DNA of 58,114 nt, filler included, from Circinaria calcarea (lineage: Eukaryota), in NCBI GenBank assembly GCA_051942165.1. It is 3 parts of 3 records of this genome, joined end to end, with 100 filler letters (N's around TTAATTAATTAA, not from the genome) between each part and the next. Parts side by side here need not be neighbours in the genome. Positions count along the whole stretch, not along the records: positions 19,476 to 38,756 come from JAVECS010000212.1; 2 more parts are not named here. One strand, given 5' to 3'. Positions within the stretch are counted from its first letter, which is position 1; each line of letters begins with the position of its first letter. The notes beneath the pieces are model-generated. The model saw only the letters and a program-made list of their open reading frames with translations, searched no databases and had not been told where the DNA came from. Made by a program: the position numbers and the translations under genes. Below are positions 4,460 through 38,856 of the stretch, piece by piece.

Positions 4460-5477
4460 GGTCGCGTTCGGGAAGCTTGTAGACTATAAAACTATACCTA
4501 GGACATCTCAACAAAAGCACAAATATTCACATCGATTTCTCTCGCAATCTGCAGTGTCATACGGTTAGAGTTACCACACCTAATGCTTCTTAATCCTCCC
4601 TCCCGGCTCAAAGGATACCCTGTTCAATTTACCATACCCCCGGATGGGCGAAGTAGAGTATCAGATGATTATAGATTCCACATCGCACAGGAGTGTTTAA
4701 CTGAATTATCCTTACAAAACGGATGGGCGCTGCCAAAGGCATGGGCTCTCACACTCTACTAACTATACTCAGAGGAGTATATCTAGTATTACTAATACTC
4801 TAATCCTCCATTCCCCGGCCCCCTTTTAAACTCCATCTAAGAACTACGATTATTCCCGTACCCTCCTGCTCGGCTCTGAAATATTAATCTACGTGAGCTT
4901 GGATCATTATTTTCAATCGTTTTTCAATTGTTTTCTATGTTTTTCTTGTCTAATGCTACTTGCAACACATGCAAAGAAAAGAAACGTGCAATGTACCCAA
5001 CGCGATGCGACTCGACGACAATTTCGGGTGAGGAGTAGTTTGAGTCTCGCAAAGGGTACAGAAGTGCAGCATCATGCTGGGGCTTCGAACCCTGGTGGTG
5101 GTGCTGCTGCTGCTATGAAAGGAAGGGAGAGATGGGATTTTGGGAGGTGAGAGGAGAGCAAGGGGGCGGAATGTGTACACAATCTAGCTTCGACAACAGA
5201 GAATGGATAATACACGGGCTGTAAATTTCTTGGGTACAGAGGCCATCGCATCCTCCCTCTCATAGTACTCCCACATCGGACCTCGGATACTAGGCATTGG
5301 GATGATAGCTCAAGCATAAGCGACACCCCGAACTGTGTTGGACAACGGAGCCACGTCAGTGAAACGGACATTAATGGCTCGAGTGAAAGAATAGCAAAAA
5401 GACAAACGCATGCTGAAGAGAGGTGAAAAGAAAAGGAAATACAGCCTTGATCCTAGAAGAAATCTGCAAGATGCCCA

Positions 5478-7977
5478 TCATCTCATGAATTCGGGCTCAA
5501 TTGATTCAGCCCAATTATCCAGCACCTCTACGGGAATGTTTCTAAGGAATTCTAGATCGTCATCGTCTAGGGTTGGTAGTGAGATATCTTCCAGGGCGAA
5601 GGTGGTGTCTGGGGAATTGGCTTGTGGGTCGAAAGGTGGGATTATGCGATTTGCTCGTACGTTGTTCAAGAAATCATCATCCTCATCGTAGTCGAGGCCT
5701 TGCGGTGCAAAGTCTCCCAGTGCGAAAGTCGTGTTTTGATCGTCGAATTGCAAATCGGAAGGTGGGCTTGTGTAAGTTGGCGAAAGCGTTTGAAGTGGTG
5801 GGATTGTTCGAGATGGTGAGGCGGGTAGCAGTGCTTCGGATGAGGGATCCCACCCACTTCCCTCTCCATGCAAGTCCTGTGGACGATCTGCGTAACCCAA
5901 AAATGTGCTGGGATTGCTTCCGTACAAATCAGGTACATATGGTGGGACTCGTGTATGGCTCTCTAGAATCGGTTGCGTAGGAACTGGTGCTGGCGAGCTC
6001 TGGGAGGTGGGCGAGGTAGATGCAGAGACTGGTTCCTATTGCAAACAGTCAGATAGGGGTTGCCGAATGAGAAGAGTGAATTATAATTACCCCCGCGTAA
6101 GCGTTTGCAAAGCTGGGTAGCTCTGCTGATGTATCGATACCGATGCTAGCAACATTATAGTAAGGTAGGCCAATGTAGGTTTGAGCGGCTGGCAGTTGGG
6201 GATTTGGGTCAGTGTTAGGAAGGATATGCGGTTCTATCACCCCAAACGCGTTTCGAGGGTCCATCTTCTGAGCCTTCATGTCCATATAAAGATCATTACG
6301 CGATGTTGGTATCCTATTTGTTTCGTTGGTGAGCGTGGCTTTACCTATACTCGGGTGAAAAGCTAGCACCGGATCGTATCGCCCTTGGTCGAGTAAAGTC
6401 CTATTCGCTGAAGAATTAGAGTACAGTAGAGCTGAAAGCGGTGGATTCAGTGAGACATCTCCGAGAGATGACGCTGTGGAACACTGATTATCCGCTTCTG
6501 TGTAGGGAGGATAAACTGCCTTCTTAAGCCTATGTCCGGGAGCTGAAGCTGCTTGTACGAAAGTGCTAGTATCCGGAGAAGCAAGCTGGTACAGATCGGC
6601 TGATCTGGGTGTTATGCTTGAAGATGATGTAGATGCATCAACTCTGCTTCTCTTTCTTGATTCCATTTCGACATGGTCATCTATTACCATGGGTCTCTTA
6701 CGCGGGTTGCTAGCTGTGATTTCTGCTTCTCGTAATTGCTTTTGATAGTGAGGCGGATCAGGATGCACTGACTGGAATCCGTCCTTATCGCCAACTGGCG
6801 CATATTGCGAGTTTCCGACTGGTCCCCTACACCAAATATCCCGCTGGCCCCACCCTTTGACTGTGCCTCCACTCACATAACCTGTTGGCCTGGCAGGGAT
6901 GCTCCTACTACTCTCGGAAAAGTAAGCTGGGTGATTGCGTTTAGTAATAGAGCTTTGTGGGAAATCCACGGATTCGGCTGTCTGAAGCTCGTCTGTCACT
7001 TCACCGTCTTTAGAATTGTGTGAAAGAGGTTCTCTGTTATCGTAAAGATGTTCATCTGAATTATGACTCCTATCCACTAGATCGATCCTTGGCGTATTTA
7101 CTGCATTGGGAACAAAACTTGTGCTCTTAGGTTTAGATCCTCTTGAACATCCCCACGCTATCCGTGAGGTCTTGAAATAACCTTTGCCAGTGTTCGAATG
7201 AGGAACCTTAAGTTTCACTTCAAGTTTGCTCTTCTTAGATTTGGTCTTCCCATTATCACTATCTTCCTCCTCAGTCGCGTCAAGGTCATCTGACTTCCGC
7301 TTTTTCCCCTTGACGTGACGTCCTAACCACTTCTGTGGAACCCCATCACTTGATTTCTTCATTGGTACCTCCTTCCAGTGGCCATAGCCTTGACTAGTGG
7401 CCAATGCTTTGAGGCGTCTGCTCTCGGCAAGTGCGTTCAAGACGTCGTCATGGGGTGTGTGTTCTACACCATTTTCAAGGAAAGAGTCTAGATGTAAAAA
7501 GACATTGGGATCGTCTGGATGCTGGATACCACGAGCGGTAATCTTCCAGTTGCAGTTCTTCTTGAGCATGTCGTCAGTCAAATTCTCAACTTGCTCGATC
7601 AACACTTTTGCGGGCTGCCCTCCGTTCTTGCGCCATACACGGGCATTGTAGGGTTTGCGCGCTTGTCGAAGGCGTCTGTTGTTCATTTGATTGGTCAGGT
7701 TGTAAGTGAGTTCAGGGCAGCCTGCAGGCTGCCGTGATCCGAGGTCGTCGTAAGAGAGCGCCGGGTGCATTCGGAAATAAACCTCAACATCTCGGGGATC
7801 CATATCCATGACACTGCATGTGAATTCTCTCGGCAAGAAAGGAAAGTCTCGAAGTTGTTTACCATTGCGGCCTTTTGCTGGCGTCCCAGTCAAGGAGTCC
7901 AGGAGCGGTCCAGGCGTTGGTAGATCATAAAACCCAGTAGGCGGATCCAACTGACCTAACAAAGGCCACAGAGACAT
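5478..7977 (-). CDS. Uncharacterised protein; exons 7977..6091 and 6035..5478; paralogue of the gene at 2-2212 (further upstream exons possible)
   Basis: The first ATG in the 679-aa ORF is at 7977 (MSLWPLLGQLDPP). A GTAATT...CTGAC...TAG intron at 6090-6036 (phase 0) joins it in frame to ORF 5478..5927. TATAAAAG lies on the minus strand near 8391-8398. Confidence 0.8.
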
Positions 7978-19375: not shown

Positions 19376-19475
19376 NNNNNNNNNNNNNNNNNNNNNNNNN
19401 NNNNNNNNNNNNNNNNNNNTTAATTAATTAANNNNNNNNNNNNNNNNNNNNNNNNNNNNNNNNNNNNNNNNNNNN
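19376..19475. other. Artificial contig linker / assembly gap (N44-TTAATTAATTAA-N44)
   Basis: Exactly 100 nt with a six-frame stop palindrome in the middle; identical structure at 38757-38856. Confidence 0.97.
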
Positions 19476-19669
19476 AGGAAGAGGAAGAGGAAGAGGAAGA
19501 GGAAGAGGAAGAGGAAGAGGAAGAGGAAGAGGAAGAGGAAGAGGAAGAGGAAGAGGAAGAGGAAGAGGAAGAGGAAGAGGAAGAGGAAGAGGAAGAGGAA
19601 GAGGAAGAGGACGAGGAAGAGGAAGAGGAAGAGGAAGAGGAAGAGGAAGAGGAAGAGGACGAGGACGAG
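19476..19669 (+). repeat. (GAGGAA)n hexanucleotide microsatellite, ~32 visible units, a few GAGGAC variants, abutting the gap
   Basis: Directly visible; it begins at the contig edge, so its true length is unknown. Confidence 0.97.
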
Positions 19670-20685
19670 GGGAGGGATTGTGGTGCGGTATACGGTGCTG
19701 ACGATTTGAAGGTTCGGGAGATGTGTATGTAAGCTTTTTATTGGCATGGGGGAGAACTTGGGGACTAGGCTTTTTGGTGTCATGCTACGTGAGCTGAGAA
19801 CTGTGGGACATGACTGACCGAAGTTGGGATTGTAGGTCCGCAAAATGTAGAGGCACTGCGGGGGAGGTTTACAAAGTTCTTGTAGATCCCTGGCGGTTCC
19901 CCGCTTGCTCCGATTTGAAATATTGAAAGATTGTATGTAGGTAGTATTTCACTTTTATTTGATTCCTGTCTACTACTCTTGAACGTTTTTCATTAGCAGC
20001 CTGACACTCCTGTTCGGAAGGAAGAGATGATGCTCCCAAATCCTGGATGCCAACTATACAGCCTGGGAAGGGCGAAACTGAAAAAAATCATCTGGAGCTT
20101 CGACGACAATAGCCTCCCCGGTTTTTGGGCATGAGCCATGGCGTAGAGTCTTCGATGACCGGCTGAAAACCCACACCATTCACCATCCAAATCCGTCGAC
20201 CCCGCTGTTCTCCTTACCGCTGGGGGGAAGAGTCCGAGAAATTTACATCTTGGCTGGGTAAGGATGCCGTATGGGAAAGATTTGGCACCTTCAATAAGAC
20301 AGATTGTGGTGCTCGAAGGCGAGGGAGCTAGAGGTAGGTCATGAGTGGCTTTCGATGGCGGTAGAAGCGTGATGCGATTTGACATGTTTGCAGGCGACCG
20401 AGAAGAAGGTGTTTGAGGCCATGGAAGGGGAAGATGTCGAGAAGAACGAAAAGGGCGAGCTGGCATTGTATGGGCAGGCAGTGTGGTACTGGACCATAAC
20501 ATTACCGGGTACGCCATTTAAGAGTGGTGGATAGTTTGTGTCGGAGTAGGTCTCCTATTCGCTTCCACCGAATACAAAGTTCTGTAGATAGATCGGGGCC
20601 ACCCTTAAGTGCTGCTCCCTAGAAACGCCCATCGCTATGCATCACACGATGTGTATGTAGTCCGGGCGCACAACCGTTCTCTGCG

Positions 20686-29654: not shown

Positions 29655-32600
29655 CTATTCCTCGCTCCCGTCGGTCATCTCCTCATCTCCCTCCGATGCC
29701 TCGAGATCGTCTTCGTCATCCATTTCATCGTCCCCACCGTCCCCTTTGAGGCCGTAATCATCCTGGAAGAACGCGAGGGTCTTGACTTCGGGGTTGAATC
29801 CCATGCCCTTGAATCCTTTGACGAGGTCCTGCTAGTGATCAGAAATGGAAGTCATGATCACAGAACGTAGGAAGACGACTTACCTCTTCCATAATCGGGG
29901 CACAGGTGACAAAGATGTTTGCCGTCTCCGGTTTGAAGGCCGGTAGGAGAATCTCTTCCATGACCTTCTTGATCTCGTCGACGCCCACACTCCTGATTTC
30001 TTTCAGAATAACATCGTTCCAGTCGTTTGGCAGTCCCCGGATGACTTGTCTGATGAAGCTGCCTTGTGCTGCTGTAGTCATCGTAGCCTGCGCGTTCGCG
30101 AATCCCAACACTATCGAACTAACTGCACCCTCTAGGGCTAGCGAATCGAAAGGTGTAGCACCAGATACAAAGTCTTCAACAACTTTCTTACTGGTTGCGA
30201 ACGCCTTGAAGGCATCCGGCGAGCGGTAGACATCAAAGGAGATCTGACCCGATTCTACCTGGCGCGAAAAACTTGTGCCGTATGCTAGGCCCGTTCCGCG
30301 GACAGCCGTCCAGAGGGGACCTTCAACTGCGTCTAGATATGACACTGCTACCATGAGAGCGGGGACCCGAGGGTCTTGGAGCGTCTCAGGACCTTTTGCT
30401 ATAGAGAGGCAAAAGGAGGAGTCAATGGTCGGCAACGGTATAATGTATGACAGTCCTCCTGGATTCAGGCCTGCCTTGCTGAGTCTTGATAACCGGGTAT
30501 CTAGAGGAGCTAGTGGTTTGCTGGTGTCAAGATCGGAGACGAGAAGATCCCAGGAAGAGACCGGCTTATCGATCTTCTCAACATTGGCAACGACAAGGAC
30601 ACGGAAATTTGGAAACTGGCAAAGAGCGTGGCGGATTTCTTCAAGTTGAGAGATTACTGTTTCCGGTTCGGAATCGAGAAGTCGTTTCACGCGCTTCAGA
30701 TAAAGGGCTTTAACCAGTGTACCTCGAGCTCGACCGATCGACTCAGGGGAAGCATGAACCATGATCTCCGCAGCAGATGTCATCTACCAATCTTAGTTAT
30801 CCGTTACGCATTACCAGGACTCGTAAATCTTACACTACTCCCACTTCTCTTCTCTTCAGGAACGTCTGCAAGCAGCTTGGCTGTCGTGGCTTTAATCCTC
30901 TGTTACGAATTAGTAGTGGAAAGTGAGCGGCGAAGAAGGCCCACAGTCATGTCAAAAACCCCATCCCAAAGTAAATCTCTGAGCCATCTAATCGCTGTTT
31001 GATATTTCTCGCTTTCCGCTTGGATTGTGATCTTCAGCATCTCGGGATTGCCGAGCTGCGTCGCGGTGTCGATACTGTAGCCGACCGTGTCCTTTTCAAG
31101 CTCCATTACCACCTGTTCAAATTCGATCTTCTTTCCATCTCGTATGATAGGCGCATTGAACAAATTCTCAATATAAATGGCAACTAATGGGCGAAGATGT
31201 ACTGGAATAGGCCCAGTCCCCAAAAGCAAGGTTAGGTGAACGAAGTTTGATTTCACATGCTCGAAGTGGATGAAGAGTGGTGACTCCGAATTGTCCTTGT
31301 CAATAATATGCTGTATAGGATTTTCAAGCTTTCCCATCCTACGTGCCACCCCTGCTCGGGCTGTGGTGGTCTTGATGAAATGGATGGAGCTGGTATCGGG
31401 CACTCCGAAGCGCTCAAGTAAGTCTCTGGGAATCTCCTTATCGTTCTCGGCTTTTGCAGCAGCCAGCTTCTTCTCAAGTTCTTTGAGTCCTGCTTCGCCT
31501 AATTTCTCTATCTGGGCAGCTATCCGATCCTTTTCTTCTTGTTTGAGCTGCTTAGACATCTTAGCAGAGGGTTTACCTAGTATAGAGACATGGGGCGCAT
31601 CCGATATCCACTTTCTTAAGAACTGCTTCCATTGGAACTCGGTCCATTTCTCCAGTTCGTCATATTCGTGGAGAGTCTCTAAATCTCTTAGCGTCGACCC
31701 GTCTCGATTACCAAACAAGAAGTCGCCGATAATTGAGTCGGTAAAGAATAATCCACTGTTTTCGGCATGGAACTTCACTTGCCGTCTTTCCCTGTGTACA
31801 CAGTCCATCATGTAAACCATGTCCAGATCCCTATCGGCGGTTTCATGCAGAACTTCGAAAAATCTTGCTTCAATTTGAGACAGCTTATCTGTGTCGACAC
31901 TGCTGAGCGTAAATTGAATGACAGTGTCGGGCCGAGACTCTTGCCCATAGTACACAGCACTTGCAAGTTGCTCTTTCTCGACTAATATATTTTCCAGGAC
32001 CGACGCAGATGATCCCGCCAGGTACGTTAGTAGAATGCTTAGTGCCGCCACTGTGTAATATAGTTATTATCTTGTTGCTCGAAAAAGGTATTCAGTTACT
32101 TACTTTGCAAGGTATCAGTGCAAGTGGGCCCGAAAAAGCTGATCATTATCTCGCCTGAAGACTCGTCCTCTTCTGGAAACTCCACTGTCTCAATCGAAGA
32201 GCTTTGAAGCGCCGGCGGCTGCTTAGACTCAGTCCAAGGTCTTTTGAAAGGTGCATCAGGTTTTGGGATGTCCTCCAAGATTGTTTCTTCAAAGTCATCC
32301 AGGATTTTCAATAGAGCAGTATGATCAACCTCACCAACGATAACAAGGCATAAATTCTTCGGCTGATACATCTCTCGATGAAATTGGCGTATACGATCTG
32401 CTGTGAGTACACGAAGATTCTCCATCATGCCCCCTGTCTCGTATCGGAAGCCGACCCCTTCAGGGTATAGCAACCGCTTCGATTTCAAATCCATGAGTTC
32501 ACCTTGATTGTTTTGCACGCCTTGCATCTCTGAGTACACAACACCAGCATCATGTCCGGTACCGTCAACATGATGTACCTCGGTATAGCATCCCGCATCT

Positions 32601-33001
32601 GTCAGTGTGGGAACGATGACATGCTCTAAGTAGACTGGTAGAATTTGAGCAAAACCTGCCCATCCAGCCGTATCCAGCGTATAAGCAGTATGGTCTGTTG
32701 CCGTCCATGCATTGGTATTCGAATACGCTCTGGTAGCCAGTCTATCGAGGAAACCTTTATATTTGTAGCTTTTTGATCCCATGAAACACAAATGCTCTAA
32801 AGTATGTGGGGCACCAGAATCATCATGAATCTCTGTGGCGAGAGCAAAGAAGCCCAAGACTTTTGGGCTTTTTTGGTCAACGACTACCACTTGCATACCC
32901 GTCCTCTCGGAGACATACTGGGACAGTACATCTGGAGAGTACTCGATACCAAACTTTTGTATGGTTCGGAAATAGCTGCTTCGAGTAGCCGAAGGCATCA
33001 T
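29655..33001 (-). CDS. M16-family zinc metalloprotease (YOL098C/Sdd3-like, ~1047 aa); exons 33001..32104, 32050..30945, 30899..30834, 30783..29884, 29828..29655
   Basis: Inverted zinc motif HTLEH in DDSGAPHTLEHLCFMGS; TNAWTATDHTAY, GVVYSEMQG, YETGG and EGPLWTAVRGTGLAYG; acidic C-terminal tail. Four canonical introns keep the frame. Confidence 0.9.
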
Positions 33002-33770
33002 GGGTATCACGGCCCGTGAGGCTGGTGAGAGAGAGATGGCTTTGAGTATCGAACAAAAGATCGTCTGCCAGGAATAGCTCGCCCTTTTAACTCATTGTTA
33101 GCTGATGTCCGACTGGGACTCAGCCGCATAGAATAAGCTTCGTGCTCCACAGAAAACACTCTGCAGCCTCAGGCCGGCCTTATCAGACCCACCGGACTGA
33201 CATACCAATATAGAAAGACAGAGGAAGTAACTATGAGTAGCGGGAAAACAAGGAACAGTAAGTAACTTTGACGTATTGTTCCCATGCTGGGTACGGGACA
33301 GAATTGTTGAAGACCAGATGATTATAAAAATGAGTTGATTGTGCTTTGATTTCACTTCTTGTGCGACATATAGAAAGGTGCCAATCTGCAGGAAGCCGTC
33401 GCGTCGTACAAGGACTTACCTAAATATGAGTCTCGAAATGAGTGTGAAGCCGCCCTACTCGGTGGAGATCTTGGCATCAAAAGACGATGGAAATGTTCCA
33501 CGCGCTTACCATAGCCGGGGCTCGCCCAAGGCGCGCCGCCTTTAGCGCCCGAGCAAGGCGCACTCAATATAGCCATCAGAAAACCGCGTCCTCTCCTTTT
33601 GGATTTACAATCATGAAAATACATAAAGGGTGAGAGGGTAATACAGGCTGAGGGAAAACAAACAGAGGAATGGTACAGCAAAATGTTTACGAATAATAAA
33701 AAGGGGCATTATTCATATAGTATATCTGTGCATCTGAAGCTCACTACGTTATGTCTATGAAAATTTTGGC

Positions 33771-33920
33771 AGTGTACACTACTGGTACAGTTGTGGAACT
33801 GCCACACTATATTGTCGGTGCAATTTGCAGTTCCACACTGCCATAACAGTATGGTGTGGGCTCTATACTGCACCGGCAGTGTCAATATAGCCTCCACACT
33901 GCACTATTGACACCACTGCC
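33771..33920. repeat. Cluster of short inverted repeats/hairpins built on CACACTGC-like words
   Basis: Palindrome AGTGTACACT (33771-33780); 11-bp perfect IR TGTGGAACTGC/GCAGTTCCACA (33792-33802, 33827-33837); CAGTAT/ATACTG (33847-33870); imperfect GGCAGTGTCAATATAG/CTATTGACACCACTGCC (33875-33920). Confidence 0.55.
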
Positions 33921-34271
33921 AGCGTTGTACTGGACAAGATAGGCGCACTCATCTCTCATACTTTTGTCCTTTTCTGCAGGGACGATAACTTGCTGGTCCC
34001 ATTGTTAAGGCTGCACCATGGACCAATGAAGCCAAGTTACGGAATAGGTTTGATTCACATTTAGAAAAATCCTAGGTAAGACGCGAATCGGTCCTAACTA
34101 GGCTAGCCCGATTGCCAAGCAATGCGAGGCACGGCGACAATAGTCATGGATGTTAATTGTGCGACAAGGCCTGAAAGAGATCCCAAGACCGAACGATTTC
34201 TGATAATCGTTGATGCCACCGAAAGTTCTGTTGAAGGTAGGAGCAGTGCCCTATCTGAGATGCTCAGTAAA

Positions 34272-36619
34272 CTAATACACCCCAAATAATTTCAACACGC
34301 CTTCTTTCTCCTCTTTCGACATCCGAAGTAGTGCCGCCTCATCGAACACGGTCCCACTACTTTTTAGTAGTTCTATTAAACGACAAGTCTCTTCGCGATC
34401 CCTCTTATACAATGCTGCAGCCAGAAGACCGTTTTCATCGGACACCAGGGCATTCGATTCCCCAGTCCCCATCCCGAGGTTGGGCACCCCAGTACTAGAG
34501 CCATACCGTCCTTCACCTAACATGAAGGTGGCTTTCAACTGCATATCGTAGGTATATATTTCGGCGGTACGTTCATGAGGATCTATTGCAATTTGCATAA
34601 TATGAGATTGGAGCTCGCTGTCTATAATCCAGTTAAATTTAGGTTAGCTAAATGTAAGCTAGATAGAATGGACGGAGTTTACCTTGAATCTCGAGGTTTC
34701 GAAGCTTAGGTTTAGGACAGAAACTGAGGACGATATAATCGTCAAGGATGTTCCATGTTCTGTATTTACCTTCTGGTCCAAACCGAGCCGCATGCTCCAT
34801 AATTTGTGCCTTGCTTCCAGACTGAAGGATTTCGACACCCCATTTTTTGTCGAAAATATAGAAGTCAACCCCTCCATTCGAGGAATGGGCATACTCGGAT
34901 AGGATGGGCAGGTGGTTAAGCTCGCGATGAAGGCAACGATATATCTCATCCTGGAATGCTGCCTCGGGAATGCTCCAACGATTACTGGATCGGCTTTGTA
35001 TGGCAGACGGACTTATCCCTTCGATCGCATTCAGGCATACCTGTAAGAGCGTGCGGCCATCAGGTGCTGCGTCTGGGTCGGGACCTGGTAAGAGGCGCAT
35101 ATGCGCAACTCTACAATAACGTTTAGCATCACCATCATCTTACGGATTGTCATTGTGTACCTTCGATGGATTGGAGACGCAAATACGTATGTAATTTTTC
35201 TTTGATCAAGCCCAGCCGACGGTTCTGTATGGAGAAATCCCATTTTGTGACAAAATGCAAATGCATCAAAACCTGTCTGTAAATGGGTGCAGCCGTCGCG
35301 TTTCATCGCTGTATGTAACATGACTCTGAAAATGTCTGAAAACTTAATATCGCCATAGTCTTTTGTCAACAAAGTATTTTGGCAGGATTTTTCGGCCCAC
35401 TCCGTCCAGACTCCTCTACCATAACGACCAAGCTCAGCCATGAACCCGGCTTGATCGGCAATGATCGCGTGACAAAGTTCGGGTGTCCATGTCTTTGAGA
35501 ATCGGACCTTGCTGTTCAGCTGTGAAAAGCTTGTCAGCACAAGATGATCATCAGGAATGATGATCAAATATTTACCTGAGGGAAGCGAGATTCAAAATGA
35601 CCGAGAAGCAATCCAATCATGCCGGGGTGACCACTAGTCGCTATATGCATGTACTCGCACACACTTCCCATGAGCTTGTACTTGTTGTCAAACGCCCACT
35701 TTTGGACAACGTCTTCAGTCTCTTTCGATGTGAATTGCATACATAATCCGCCCGTAACGGAAGGGAATAACCCAATCCGTTGGCTCTGATCAATCCTAAT
35801 GGCTTCGGATTGAATGTTCTCATTCGGTCCTGCCAGTAGTTCGGTAGTAGATCCATAGACACACACCAATATATATAATGATCGTGATCTGGTGAACATG
35901 TTCTTCAGCTGGCGAGACCAAAAGTCAGGCTCAAGATAAGAATTCTGCGCTTCGTCGATGAGATATATCAGCTTTGCATTTGGATTGTGGTCTCGGTATT
36001 TAGCGTTGATTTTCCGCCAATGCTTTGCTTTCTCGTCGAGATAGTCCTGATAAGGAAGGCCATTCCGCTTTTCTGCGCTTTCCCATTGGATCCAGATTGG
36101 CTCTAAAGAGGGATACTCCGCCAGAATATGTCGACCTAGCAGTATAAGCAGTGTCGATTTTCCGACTTGTGGAGTGGCACGGATGACTAATACTCCTTTC
36201 TCTAGCACAAGTCTAATGGTAGCAGCAACAAGTTCTTCTCTCTGACTTATGTAGGAACACTCCGGATTCCATGCCATGTTAGAAAATGGAAGTTCATGTT
36301 CACTCATATCGTGCTCACAAAACATGCACAAATCAATCGGTGGAGTGAAAACACCTTGAGGACAGGAACAACTTCGGCAAGGCCAATGAACGATCGCGTT
36401 GTCGGGGAGTACTCGAGCCGACTTTTCCGATAGAGCTGATGCGAGGTAAGAAGGCTCCTTCGCCTTGCGGGAACTGGGAGCGGGAAGCTGTCGCGTCGGT
36501 TGCCTTGGATTGCTCGCAAACGGGGAAGATCCGGTGTTAGAGGACTCTCGTATTGACACCTCCGGCGGGGAGGTAGAGCTAGAAGCCTTCGCTGCTTTGG
36601 ATTTGGTAGTAGGAGGCAT
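34272..36619 (-). CDS. Crinkler-type (CR) protein: Cys/His header + P-loop NTPase + restriction-endonuclease-like domain, ~726 aa; exons 36619..35576, 35519..35161, 35110..34683, 34621..34272
   Basis: Three canonical introns fuse four track ORFs into one frame. Walker A IRATPQVGKST, Walker B LIYLIDEAQ, TSGHPG, FASPIHRR, then PEAAFQDEIYRCL...ILSEY...GGVDFYI...WGVEIL...EHAARF...GKY. Confidence 0.75.
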
Positions 36620-37239
36620 GATGCGGAAGTTGAGTTGGTGATAAATAATTAATGTAGATAGGGAGAAGATTCTAGTCTTGAGGAGAAGTGCATTTCTTCT
36701 TCGTTGTGCTTCTTTGTTTAACCATCTTGCATGCACGACAGTTCATACTTCCCGAAACAACGTGTGCTTTTCTTTGTATTTCTTCCGTACGACATGTCGT
36801 GTTCCGGGAACTACCAATTTCAGCGTAGATGCCTAGAATGTGATGCTTTATACATGCGTTACTGACATTCCACATCAATGAAGAGCATGTTGCATTAGTA
36901 TAGAGAATGCAAACAAAGAACTAAGCATACGAATAGTAGCCCACGCGGTTTGATCGAATAATTAAAAACGACTTTCCGTACGACAAATCCGTTTCTTCAC
37001 TGATTCTCTTATAGAAAAAGTCATTTTCTTCTGTGAATGTGCCCGAATTTGTTTTGCTCGAGCAGCATAAGCCTATTGGGCAGCAGGGAGGTTCTTATTT
37101 AAGAGCCACATGGGGTACAATTATTTGAATGGAATGCGATCGTACTAGAGATTAGGCATTGCTGTGACAACAATGCTTCGGCCCTGGTTTATTCCTCAAG
37201 AAAGTGCTTCGAACGCTCAACTCCCTCCTCGAAGCCCCG

Positions 37240-37510
37240 TGTCTAAGGGGGTCGTCGCTTAAGCTCCGGGGGAGGTTTCTCGCCCGGTAAAATACCAAGC
37301 GAATTATTACCCCAATCCATAATAATTAAGCGTATTCGGCTCCTCCGGGATTATACCTTCTATCTACGGAGGCTATATTGCCTAATACTCGCGCTCTTGC
37401 CCTATTTTTCTGCTTAAAACTCGTGCCTTTACTTCCGCTTAACGCTCGCGCCTCTGCCTCCGCTTATTGAAAACCGGACCAGCCAAAAACAAGCGAGTAT
37501 TATAACTGAA
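37240..37510. mobile_element. RIP-like degenerate repeat remnant
   Basis: Hand count over 37321-37470 gives 0 CpA and ~16 TpA in 150 nt. The minus strand gives a charged reading frame broken by TAA/TAG stops. Confidence 0.35.
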
Positions 37511-38288
37511 GCGCATGGAGAAGATGTCAGGGAAACAGCGTTAATTGAACACGCCTTTCGTTCCATATCTCAGCGATCTCCCGAGCATTCTTACACATAC
37601 ATTGCACTTTTACGCATACGTCACATACACGCAGTGTTTCATAGTATCAACATAATATTTCAGTAGCCCTTATCTATACATACATTCCGGTTATACCGTG
37701 TAGCCTGTTGAAGACGTGGCGCCCTCCCTGTAATGCACTCCTTTCTCCTGGCTTGGGGCGAATGCGCCTAGTATTTATTACGTACCGGGATGAAAGGTGA
37801 GGCCGTGGAAGATTTTTGTTGTCTTGGCGGTAGGACACGAAGAAGCACGACTACCTAGGTATCCTCCTGTGAAATACTGTCGACGGCTCTGGAATGAACT
37901 CTCCGTATCGCTTTGGTGCATTCGACTTTAATTTTATAATATGACGGGAGTGAAATAATCTGGCATGTTCAGTCAAACACAAAGTCGGGGGCCTATTTGA
38001 CCCAAACGAATTTACAAACGCCAGCACAAGTCGAAGGACGGAACGGTAGGGTACGAGAGATAGTACAGATGCCAAGTAACAGAGGGCCAACAAGTGCAAG
38101 ATATGTAGTTGGCTAAATCGTAGGCACTATCTACTAACAGCGCATGTCTGTTTGCGGTAGCAATTCCTCAGCCTTACCGAGATGAGCCAACGGCGTGCAA
38201 TTCCTGGGGTGAACGAATCCTTTAACCTGAGCATGGATGATTACAACCTTAGGCACTTCTTTCCTAGACAAGCGCGTGCGTAGCACCG

Positions 38289-38756
38289 ATGCCGTCGCGG
38301 AGCTCAGGCGACTACTTGAGCAATGCCATTTTACAGTCGGTAGAAGATGGGCGGTACCCAGAAGATGAGGGCGTCATTTCGGCAGAGCTCCTACCGCCGG
38401 CGTTGACAGGACTATTAGATTTACTTGAACAGGCTCGTGCTGATGTCAAAGTAAGGGACCTCGATTTTTCTCCAAGCCCTGGCTGATTGAAAATCCTAGG
38501 CAAGCATACGGGAGCTCAGTAAGATAAGTGCACCAGACATCGATGGTTGGATATCGCAAGCCAAGCGGCTTCGTCATGACATTGAGGACTCTCAGCAACT
38601 TTCTCATGGGATAATAGCACAAGCAGATGAGGGATCACAGCTTCAGGTTGTAGTGGATGATGGGGCGGCAAAAGTCGGTTTGCTTAATGGCGAGGTTGCA
38701 TTCAACGAAGCTTTAGCTAGCACCCTCCAGGAAATCAAGGAGCTACAATCTACCTT
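38289..38756 (+). CDS. ZW10/Dsl1-like tethering/kinetochore protein, 5' part only (gap-truncated); exons 38289..38450, 38500..>38756
   Basis: MPSRSSGDYLSNAILQSVEDGRYPEDEGVISAEL...ARADVK|ASIRELSKISAPDIDGWISQAKRLRHDIEDSQ...EVAFNEAL resembles the N-terminus of filamentous-fungal ZW10 homologues; canonical intron at 38451-38499. Confidence 0.65.
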
Positions 38757-38856
38757 NNNNNNNNNNNNNNNNNNNNNNNNNNNNNNNNNNNNNNNNNNNN
38801 TTAATTAATTAANNNNNNNNNNNNNNNNNNNNNNNNNNNNNNNNNNNNNNNNNNNN
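38757..38856. other. Artificial contig linker / assembly gap (N44-TTAATTAATTAA-N44)
   Basis: Same 100-nt structure as 19376-19475. Confidence 0.97.

What the first reader, a model, noticed from the sequence alone, without database searches (positions are those of the whole stretch)
34272..36619. Crinkler-type NTPase + restriction-endonuclease-fold gene inserted among housekeeping genes
Seen: four separate track ORFs splice via three canonical introns into one ~726-aa protein. It has a variant Walker A (RATPQVGKST), Walker B (LIDEAQ), a GHPG motif, FASPIH, and a C-terminal E...D...ExL signature (PEAAFQDEIY; GGVDFYI; WGVEIL; EHAARF). Established: header + NTPase + PD-(D/E)xK-like REase is the architecture of CR (Crinkler/RHS-type) proteins, proposed to derive from transposons and to act as effectors or toxins. 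Inference: an intact, putatively active nuclease-NTPase of an accessory conflict system (self/non-self defence, symbiont/host effector or selfish element). Its position between a hairpin array (33771-33920) and a RIP-like island (37240-37510), interrupting core genes, suggests past mobility. This is the best candidate in the window for an undescribed system.
Basis: partly seen in the sequence, partly recalled or inferred. Interest (0 to 1): 0.72.

Follow-up and report, generated by a model that had tools for sequence, protein, structure and literature searches.

The report
Zinc-finger Crinkler-type nuclease in lichen fungus
This is an intact lichen-fungus gene for a predicted ATP-switched DNA-cutting protein of the known Crinkler/RHS class; it carries a likely zinc-finger front end instead of the usual one, and it likely crossed between two unrelated lichen fungi.

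Summary
The gene is real and intact: four exons, three GT-AG introns, 726 aa, matching an annotated Circinaria calcarea protein. A distant paralogue has introns at the same positions and phases. The NTPase + helical + nuclease module aligns over 466 columns with proteins bearing Crinkler headers (hhalign 100%, E 7e-55), so it works like a CR protein, a class described in 2016, not an undescribed system. It differs in its header: a Cys/His zinc-finger-like motif (36 of 73 full-module relatives), no Crinkler domain, no signal peptide. Predicted catalytic residues are kept; one conserved Arg is Gly. The flanking 'hairpin array' and 'RIP island' are relics of two separate repeat families that do not enclose the gene, and no gene is interrupted. 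No structure model or RNA evidence could be obtained. Most likely an intracellular, NTP-gated conflict DNase; function untested.

The parts
35576..36619 (-). exon 1 (aa 1-348): basic low-complexity tail, zinc-finger-like header, P-loop NTPase
36296..36379 (-). predicted zinc-finger-like header, C81-C84-C86...C98-C101-H103-H108
   Evidence: each ligand kept in 64-76 of 67-85 aligned rows; pattern in 36 of 73 full-module proteins; no Pfam match
36152..36181 (-). Walker A, K154 (aa 147-156)
   Evidence: K in 132 of 134 rows; weak AAA_14 match E 3.5e-4
35945..35962 (-). Walker B, D222-E223
   Evidence: D 135 of 137, E 119 of 137 rows
35621..35632 (-). GHPG motif (GxP-like motif of STAND NTPases; label recalled)
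   Evidence: G 131 of 132, H 125 of 131 rows
35520..35575 (-). intron 1, 56 nt, phase 0
   Evidence: same position in C504 paralogue
35161..35519 (-). exon 2 (aa 349-468): helical / probable winged-helix linker ending in FASPIH
   Evidence: H466 in 112 of 112 rows; fold inferred
35111..35160 (-). intron 2, 50 nt, phase 2
34683..35110 (-). exon 3: core of the predicted PD-(D/E)xK-like nuclease (E523, E540, D550, E561, H574); G548 where most relatives have R
34622..34682 (-). intron 3, 61 nt, phase 1
34272..34621 (-). exon 4: end of the nuclease domain (to about aa 650) and a variable tail
33663..33930 (.). end of a dispersed repeat with a palindromic terminus; internal unit amplified here (the 'hairpin array'); does not include the gene
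   Evidence: matches on 5 other contigs at 80-87%; alignment; fold
37232..37795 (.). copy of a roughly 530-bp MITE-like family with its left inverted repeat only (the 'RIP-like island'); does not include the gene
   Evidence: matches on 38 other contigs, 40 of 93 candidates scored; full copies with both ends
29839..33001 (-). left neighbour: M16 peptidase gene (approximate limits)
   Evidence: PF00675/PF05193; best named hits are Lecanoromycetes
38233..38756 (+). right neighbour: 5' part of a ZW10/Dsl1 gene, cut by the contig end
   Evidence: 96.7% to contig C1138, whose protein carries PF22766

Best explanation
This is an intact four-exon gene for a 726-aa Crinkler/RHS-type protein that likely works inside the fungus's own cells as an NTP-gated DNase of genetic conflict, and it was likely exchanged horizontally with another class of lichen fungi. 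Shown: gene model, domain order, conserved motifs, homology of the whole module to Crinkler-headed proteins, absence of a Crinkler header and signal peptide, a small family with intact and decayed copies. Inferred: the basic tail would bring it to the nucleus; the zinc-finger-like header would bind a partner or sense a trigger; the STAND-like NTPase plus helical linker would hold the nuclease off until nucleotide exchange; the released nuclease would cut DNA (invading or own) and kill or arrest the cell, as an accessory defence or non-self-recognition toxin.
For: Whole-module homology to five Crinkler-headed proteins, probability 100%, E 7.4e-55, 466 columns; 5 of 45 distant long relatives carry PF20147, 2 above the cut-off; language-model neighbours include a Crinkler cluster at 0.94 and, for aa 480-650, PDDEXK_3 clusters at 0.91. 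K154 132/134, D222 135/137, E523 119/120, E540 115/123, D550 118/123, E561 120/122 (rows include near-duplicates). nSTAND3 matches 7 of 19 close relatives below cut-off. No hydrophobic N-terminus in 7 of 7 proteins checked. Five family loci in this genome: this one and C504 open in frame, C367 and C1200 with stops, C232 apparently split by an insertion. Horizontal transfer: core identity 72.6% to Endocarpon, 45-52% to the 11 other relatives compared, while the M16 neighbour is 58.5-59.9% to Chaetothyriales; for two genera of one family the order is reversed (M16 80.7%, CR 58.8%); Circinaria + Endocarpon 100/100, Endocarpon + Pyrenula rejected, p-AU 1e-81. Known: in CR proteins toxicity is ascribed to the REase and control to the NTPase (PMC5289972); HGT between Lecanoromycetes and E. 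pusillum is reported for Starship genes (PMC13486527).
Against: No Pfam nuclease family reaches significance on any member scanned (best RE_HaeII E 0.1) and the Atlas score shares only about 155 of 256 features, so the fold rests on motifs and homology. G548 replaces an Arg present in 106 of 123 rows, which may lower activity. No activity, location, trigger or target is shown. The transfer case uses Capronia/Exophiala as stand-ins because Endocarpon's M16 was not among the 120 listed of 1194; hidden paralogy with loss also gives discordant trees; GC3 is not atypical (0.47 against 0.40-0.52); no Endocarpon DNA was seen.
Confidence: 0.52

Rival explanations
1. A single-gene poison-antidote selfish element: the nuclease would kill spores or nuclei lacking the gene and the NTPase part would give resistance, an NTPase counterpart of Spok and a fungal analogue of Medea1.
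For: Spok joins a PD-(D/E)xK killing domain to a resistance kinase and kills through DNA (PMC6660238, PMC12693581, PMC9972908); Medea1 is CR-NTPase8 + CR-REase7 (PMC11342252). Patchy spread, cross-class similarity, two copies 724/729 identical on different contigs in E. pusillum and one sequence under two locus tags in B. cinerea BcDW1.
Against: No segregation data. The CR-REase7/CifB hallmark (His three residues after the catalytic Glu) is absent: E561 is followed by I-L-Q. Relatives occur in many Botrytis and Sclerotinia species with a species-like tree, which fits stable retention. The duplicates could be assembly redundancy.
Confidence: 0.16
2. The transposase of a still-mobile element.
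For: NTPase + REase pairs are linked to prokaryotic transposons (PMC5289972); duplicates in other species; repeat relics on both sides.
Against: Gene DNA 33930-37230 is single copy; no terminal repeats or target duplication enclose it (13-nt inverted matches are near chance); paralogue loci share no flanks; no enclosing inverted repeats at five other loci examined; three conserved introns.
Confidence: 0.1
3. A delivered effector aimed at the algal partner or competing microbes, like oomycete and Rhizophagus CRNs.
For: Same C-terminal module as Crinkler-headed proteins; RiCRN1 acts in a symbiosis (PMC6131194); many close relatives are in lichen or plant-associated fungi.
Against: No PF20147 header in 19 of 19 close relatives; no signal peptide; relatives with the same header also in Aspergillus, Paecilomyces and Tirmania.
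Confidence: 0.1
4. An intact but catalytically weakened or silent copy at the start of decay.
For: G548 in place of the Arg of 106 of 123 rows; other copies in the genome are broken.
Against: All acidic catalytic candidates, the Walker motifs and seven zinc ligands are kept, with no stop or RIP signature in the gene; 17 of 123 rows have other residues at that site.
Confidence: 0.12

Closest known systems
CR (Crinkler/RHS-type) proteins with NTPase + HTH + REase C-terminus (Zhang et al. 2016, seen only through PMC5289972, PMC6131194, PMC11342252)
   Same: Header + P-loop NTPase + helical linker + REase-like domain; module alignable end to end with Crinkler-headed basidiomycete proteins; multi-copy, patchy.
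   Different: Header is a Cys/His zinc-finger-like motif behind a basic tail, not the ubiquitin-like Crinkler domain or a helical header; no large expansion (five loci); which numbered CR-NTPase/CR-REase clade it belongs to could not be read.
Oomycete and Rhizophagus CRN effectors (PF20147)
   Same: Related enzymatic C-terminus; predicted DNA target.
   Different: No LxLFLAK/Ubl header, no signal peptide, no evidence of delivery.
Spok spore killers (PMC6660238, PMC9972908) and Medea1 (PMC11342252)
   Same: PD-(D/E)xK-type domain fused to a nucleotide-using control domain, a cysteine cluster, patchy mobile distribution.
   Different: NTPase before the nuclease instead of a kinase after it; no drive data; the CR-REase7 His hallmark is absent; sequence homology to Spok or Medea1 was not tested.
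Bacterial AAA_35 / nSTAND + PD-(D/E)xK (PDDEXK_3, DUF8371) proteins
   Same: Nearest bacterial feature neighbours of the whole protein and of the nuclease part.
   Different: Similarity is by model features only; no significant sequence match to these families for the query.

Membership tests
CR (Crinkler/RHS-type) proteins | C-terminal module homologous to that of bona fide Crinkler-headed proteins | tested here: met
   hhalign 100%, E 7.4e-55, 466 columns; 5 of 45 distant relatives carry PF20147
CR (Crinkler/RHS-type) proteins | P-loop NTPase with intact Walker A and B | tested here: met
CR (Crinkler/RHS-type) proteins | REase-fold nuclease domain | tested here: inconclusive
   Conserved E..E..D..E pattern and PDDEXK_3 neighbours at 0.91; no significant Pfam or PDB match; no structure model obtained
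CR (Crinkler/RHS-type) proteins | Variable N-terminal header | tested here: met
   Zinc-finger-like header in 36 of 73 full-module proteins, Crinkler header in others
CR (Crinkler/RHS-type) proteins | Assignment to a numbered CR-NTPase / CR-REase clade of Zhang et al. 2016 | not testable with these tools
   Paper and its supplements not held
Crinkler (CRN) effectors in the strict sense | Ubiquitin-like LxLFLAK header (PF20147) | tested here: not met
   0 of 19 close relatives match at E 0.1
Crinkler (CRN) effectors in the strict sense | Secretion and translocation into a host cell | not testable with these tools
   Only indirect: no hydrophobic N-terminus
DNA transposon with NTPase + REase transposase | Terminal repeats or target duplication enclosing the gene; dispersed near-identical copies | tested here: not met
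Spok / Medea-type selfish drivers | Biased inheritance by killing non-carriers | not testable with these tools
   needs crosses
CR-REase7 / CifB-like nucleases | His three residues after the active-site Glu (PMC11342252) | tested here: not met
   WGVEILQ in the query; L at 563 in 99 of 122 rows
STAND NTPases | P-loop domain followed by a GxP helical domain and winged helix (definition recalled) | tested here: inconclusive
   GHPG conserved; nSTAND3 below cut-off in close relatives, above it in four distant ones; no model

The most novel reading that the evidence does not exclude
A zinc-finger-headed CR subfamily of ascomycetes is a single-gene poison-antidote selfish element, the NTPase counterpart of Spok, that duplicates and jumps between classes of lichen-forming fungi.
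Probability: 0.16. Interest if true: 0.8.

Novelty: new variant of a known kind. Interest (0 to 1): 0.42.

Why it matters
CR NTPase + REase proteins are mostly discussed as oomycete, chytrid and mycorrhizal effectors. This subfamily has no delivery header, sits in lichen, plant-associated and saprobic ascomycetes, and has no Pfam model, so annotations call it hypothetical. If it is an intracellular conflict DNase it is a new candidate for fungal innate defence or non-self killing; if it drives, it would be a new class of spore killer. The Circinaria-Endocarpon link would add a non-Starship case of gene exchange between classes of lichen fungi. As it stands it is an untested member of a described class.

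Tried and rejected
Structure prediction: no model could be obtained, so no fold search. RNA: no RNA holder was listed, so no reads were laid. PDB by sequence profile: one hit at E 1.4, P-loop only. PADLOC: only P-loop-level matches. Synteny by locus tags: the ZW10 search gave 4 proteins, 1 named, too few to test an empty site. Second haplotype lacking the gene: M16 and the gene each gave one copy; uninformative. Metagenome scan: 13 loci on contigs of 1.3-8.2 kb, too short for flank comparison. Composite element from the two flanking repeats: rejected. Left repeat as a Helitron end: its terminus resembles one (recalled), but it has no match in the first 10 kb of the two contigs that carry Helitron genes; left open. 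RIP of duplicated family copies: C367 and C1200 differ by 37 transitions and 14 transversions without CpA bias; not shown. Contaminant contig: rejected, the M16 gene on the same contig has Lecanoromycete best hits. Literature: Zhang et al. 2016 not held; searches for six locus tags, Spok + nuclease + Crinkler gave 0 papers; Crinkler + lichen and one search listed nothing on this subfamily by title or abstract start. Earlier scan findings: none.

Full report
Observation. The gene is as described. On the minus strand, exons 36619-35576, 35519-35161, 35110-34683 and 34621-34272 give 726 codons plus a stop; the introns are 56, 50 and 61 nt, GT..AG, in phases 0, 2 and 1. A homologue search with exon 1 returned a 726-aa annotated protein named by its source as Circinaria calcarea Q9187_001781, and each exon's translation is in it verbatim. 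That is another prediction, not proof of splicing. Independent support is that the paralogue on contig C504, 36% identical in alignment A4, has canonical donors at the same three positions and phases. No RNA evidence was obtained.

Anatomy. Residues 1-72 are a basic, low-complexity tail. Residues 81-108 hold C-x2-C-x-C-x11-C-x2-C-x-H-x4-H; each ligand is kept in 64-76 of 67-85 aligned rows, and a looser form of the pattern is in 36 of 73 proteins that span both enzyme domains (rows include near-identical Botrytis records). It has no Pfam match; 'zinc finger' is my inference. The NTPase has K154, D222 and E223 and a GHPG motif. Pfam gives only weak AAA_14 (E 3.5e-4) for the query and nSTAND3 below cut-off in 7 of 19 close relatives, above cut-off in four distant ones. 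The STAND reading of GHPG is recalled. The C-terminal domain keeps E523, E540, D550, E561 and H574 in 112-120 of 120-123 rows; position 548 is Gly here and Arg in 106 of 123 rows. No Pfam nuclease family is significant; Atlas features of aa 480-650 point to PDDEXK_3 clusters at 0.91, a lead. No structure model could be made. There is no hydrophobic N-terminus in 7 of 7 proteins checked.

Family. A profile of 19 close relatives found 1631 representatives at E up to 0.001, 139 at 1e-30 (best 150 listed). Of 45 long distant hits that I picked from that list, 5 match the Crinkler header PF20147, 2 above cut-off; those two are named from Tricholoma and Serendipita. Profile against profile, the close family and these five align over 466 columns from before Walker A to the end of the nuclease, probability 100%, E 7.4e-55. 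Named relatives with the zinc-finger-like header come from Aspergillus, Paecilomyces, Emydomyces and Tirmania. So the module is a CR module with an exchanged header. In PMC5289972 (passages and section 11 read) NTPase + REase makes up slightly over a quarter of CR C-termini, toxicity is ascribed to the REase, control to the NTPase, and the headers named are ubiquitin-like, helical or HTH. The source paper, Zhang et al. 2016, is not held; its supplements may already list this subfamily.

In the genome. Searches with each domain found four more loci (lower bound). C504 is open in frame; C367 and C1200 carry stops and are 84% alike in DNA; C232 appears split by an insertion; three of the four show the Cys/His pattern. 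The gene's own DNA is single copy and has no RIP signature.

Flanks. The gene lies between an M16 peptidase gene and a ZW10/Dsl1 gene and breaks neither. The window is a concatenation of contigs with spacers, so the NatA gene to the right is not a shown neighbour. The hairpin array is real (z -3.42) and is the end of a repeat found on 5 other contigs, whose homology stops at 33930. The RIP-like island is a copy of a roughly 530-bp element with terminal inverted repeats, matched on 38 other contigs with 40 of 93 candidates scored, here lacking its right end. The two are unrelated, neither includes the gene, and no paralogue locus shares them. They show an insertion-tolerant interval, not a mobile unit. 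An empty site could not be tested.

Spread. The first search (exon 1 words, proteins of 610-2000 aa only) gave 19 hits of 3726 candidates; the neighbour M16 gave 1194 at E 1e-50. The nearest named relative is from Endocarpon pusillum (Eurotiomycetes), while Circinaria is a Lecanoromycete. Core identity is 382/526 (72.6%) to Endocarpon and 45-52% to the 11 others compared. The M16 gene is 67-72% to four Lecanoromycetes and 58.5-59.9% to two Chaetothyriales used as stand-ins for Endocarpon. For Bathelium and Trypethelium M16 is 80.7% and the CR core 58.8%, so the family normally changes faster than M16. A careful tree of 18 proteins puts Circinaria with Endocarpon at 100/100 and rejects Endocarpon + Pyrenula (same subclass) at p-AU 1e-81; a quick tree of 48 adds two unnamed sequences to that clade. 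I put horizontal transfer at about 0.65; direction unknown; paralogy with loss is the alternative, and GC3 gives no support. PMC13486527 (passages) reports similar exchange between Lecanoromycetes and E. pusillum for Starship genes. E. pusillum has two copies 724/729 identical on different contigs, and one B. cinerea BcDW1 sequence stands under two locus tags; these are recent duplications or assembly redundancy.

Mechanism. Best reading (0.52): an intracellular DNase held off by its NTPase and released by a trigger sensed through the header, killing or arresting the cell in defence or non-self recognition. The domains and motifs are shown; location, gating, trigger and target are inferred. 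Rivals: a poison-antidote driver like Spok (PMC6660238 and PMC12693581 passages, PMC9972908 abstract) or Medea1 (PMC11342252 passages and section 19), 0.16; a weakened copy, 0.12; a live transposase, 0.10; a delivered effector like RiCRN1 (PMC6131194 passages), 0.10.

Verdict. It works like a CR NTPase + REase protein and meets the CR tests that I could run, with the nuclease fold inconclusive; it is not a CRN effector in the strict sense. Searches listed nothing on this subfamily, but the key paper was not readable. New variant of a known kind; interest 0.42, mostly for the header and the cross-class link.

Noticed in passing
window 19376-19475 and 38757-38856: N-run spacers join separate contigs (C211, C212 and the next); genes across them are not shown neighbours.
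   Followed up: yes
L063 (G000:C1138) 1-1056 against window 37796-38756: A second copy of the ZW10/Dsl1 5' region, 96.7% identical, preceded by a short internally deleted form of the same MITE with its right end; likely a second haplotype with a different deletion of one insertion.
   Followed up: partly
P0002 / P0168; P0172: Two copies 724/729 identical on different contigs in E. pusillum; one sequence under two locus tags in B. cinerea BcDW1.
   Followed up: partly
window 33663-33930; L011-L015: Small repeat family ending in a palindrome plus a CTRR-like tail, Helitron-like by recall; no link found to the Helitron genes on C126 and C264.
   Followed up: partly
L064 (G000:C232) about 5330-6150: The C232 family copy appears split between NTPase and linker by an insertion that matches repeat DNA in L012 and L014.
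   Followed up: partly
P0065: A 1143-aa Botryobasidium relative carries two NTPase + nuclease modules in tandem.
   Followed up: no
window 19478-19670: Long GAGGAA microsatellite at the start of contig C212.
   Followed up: no
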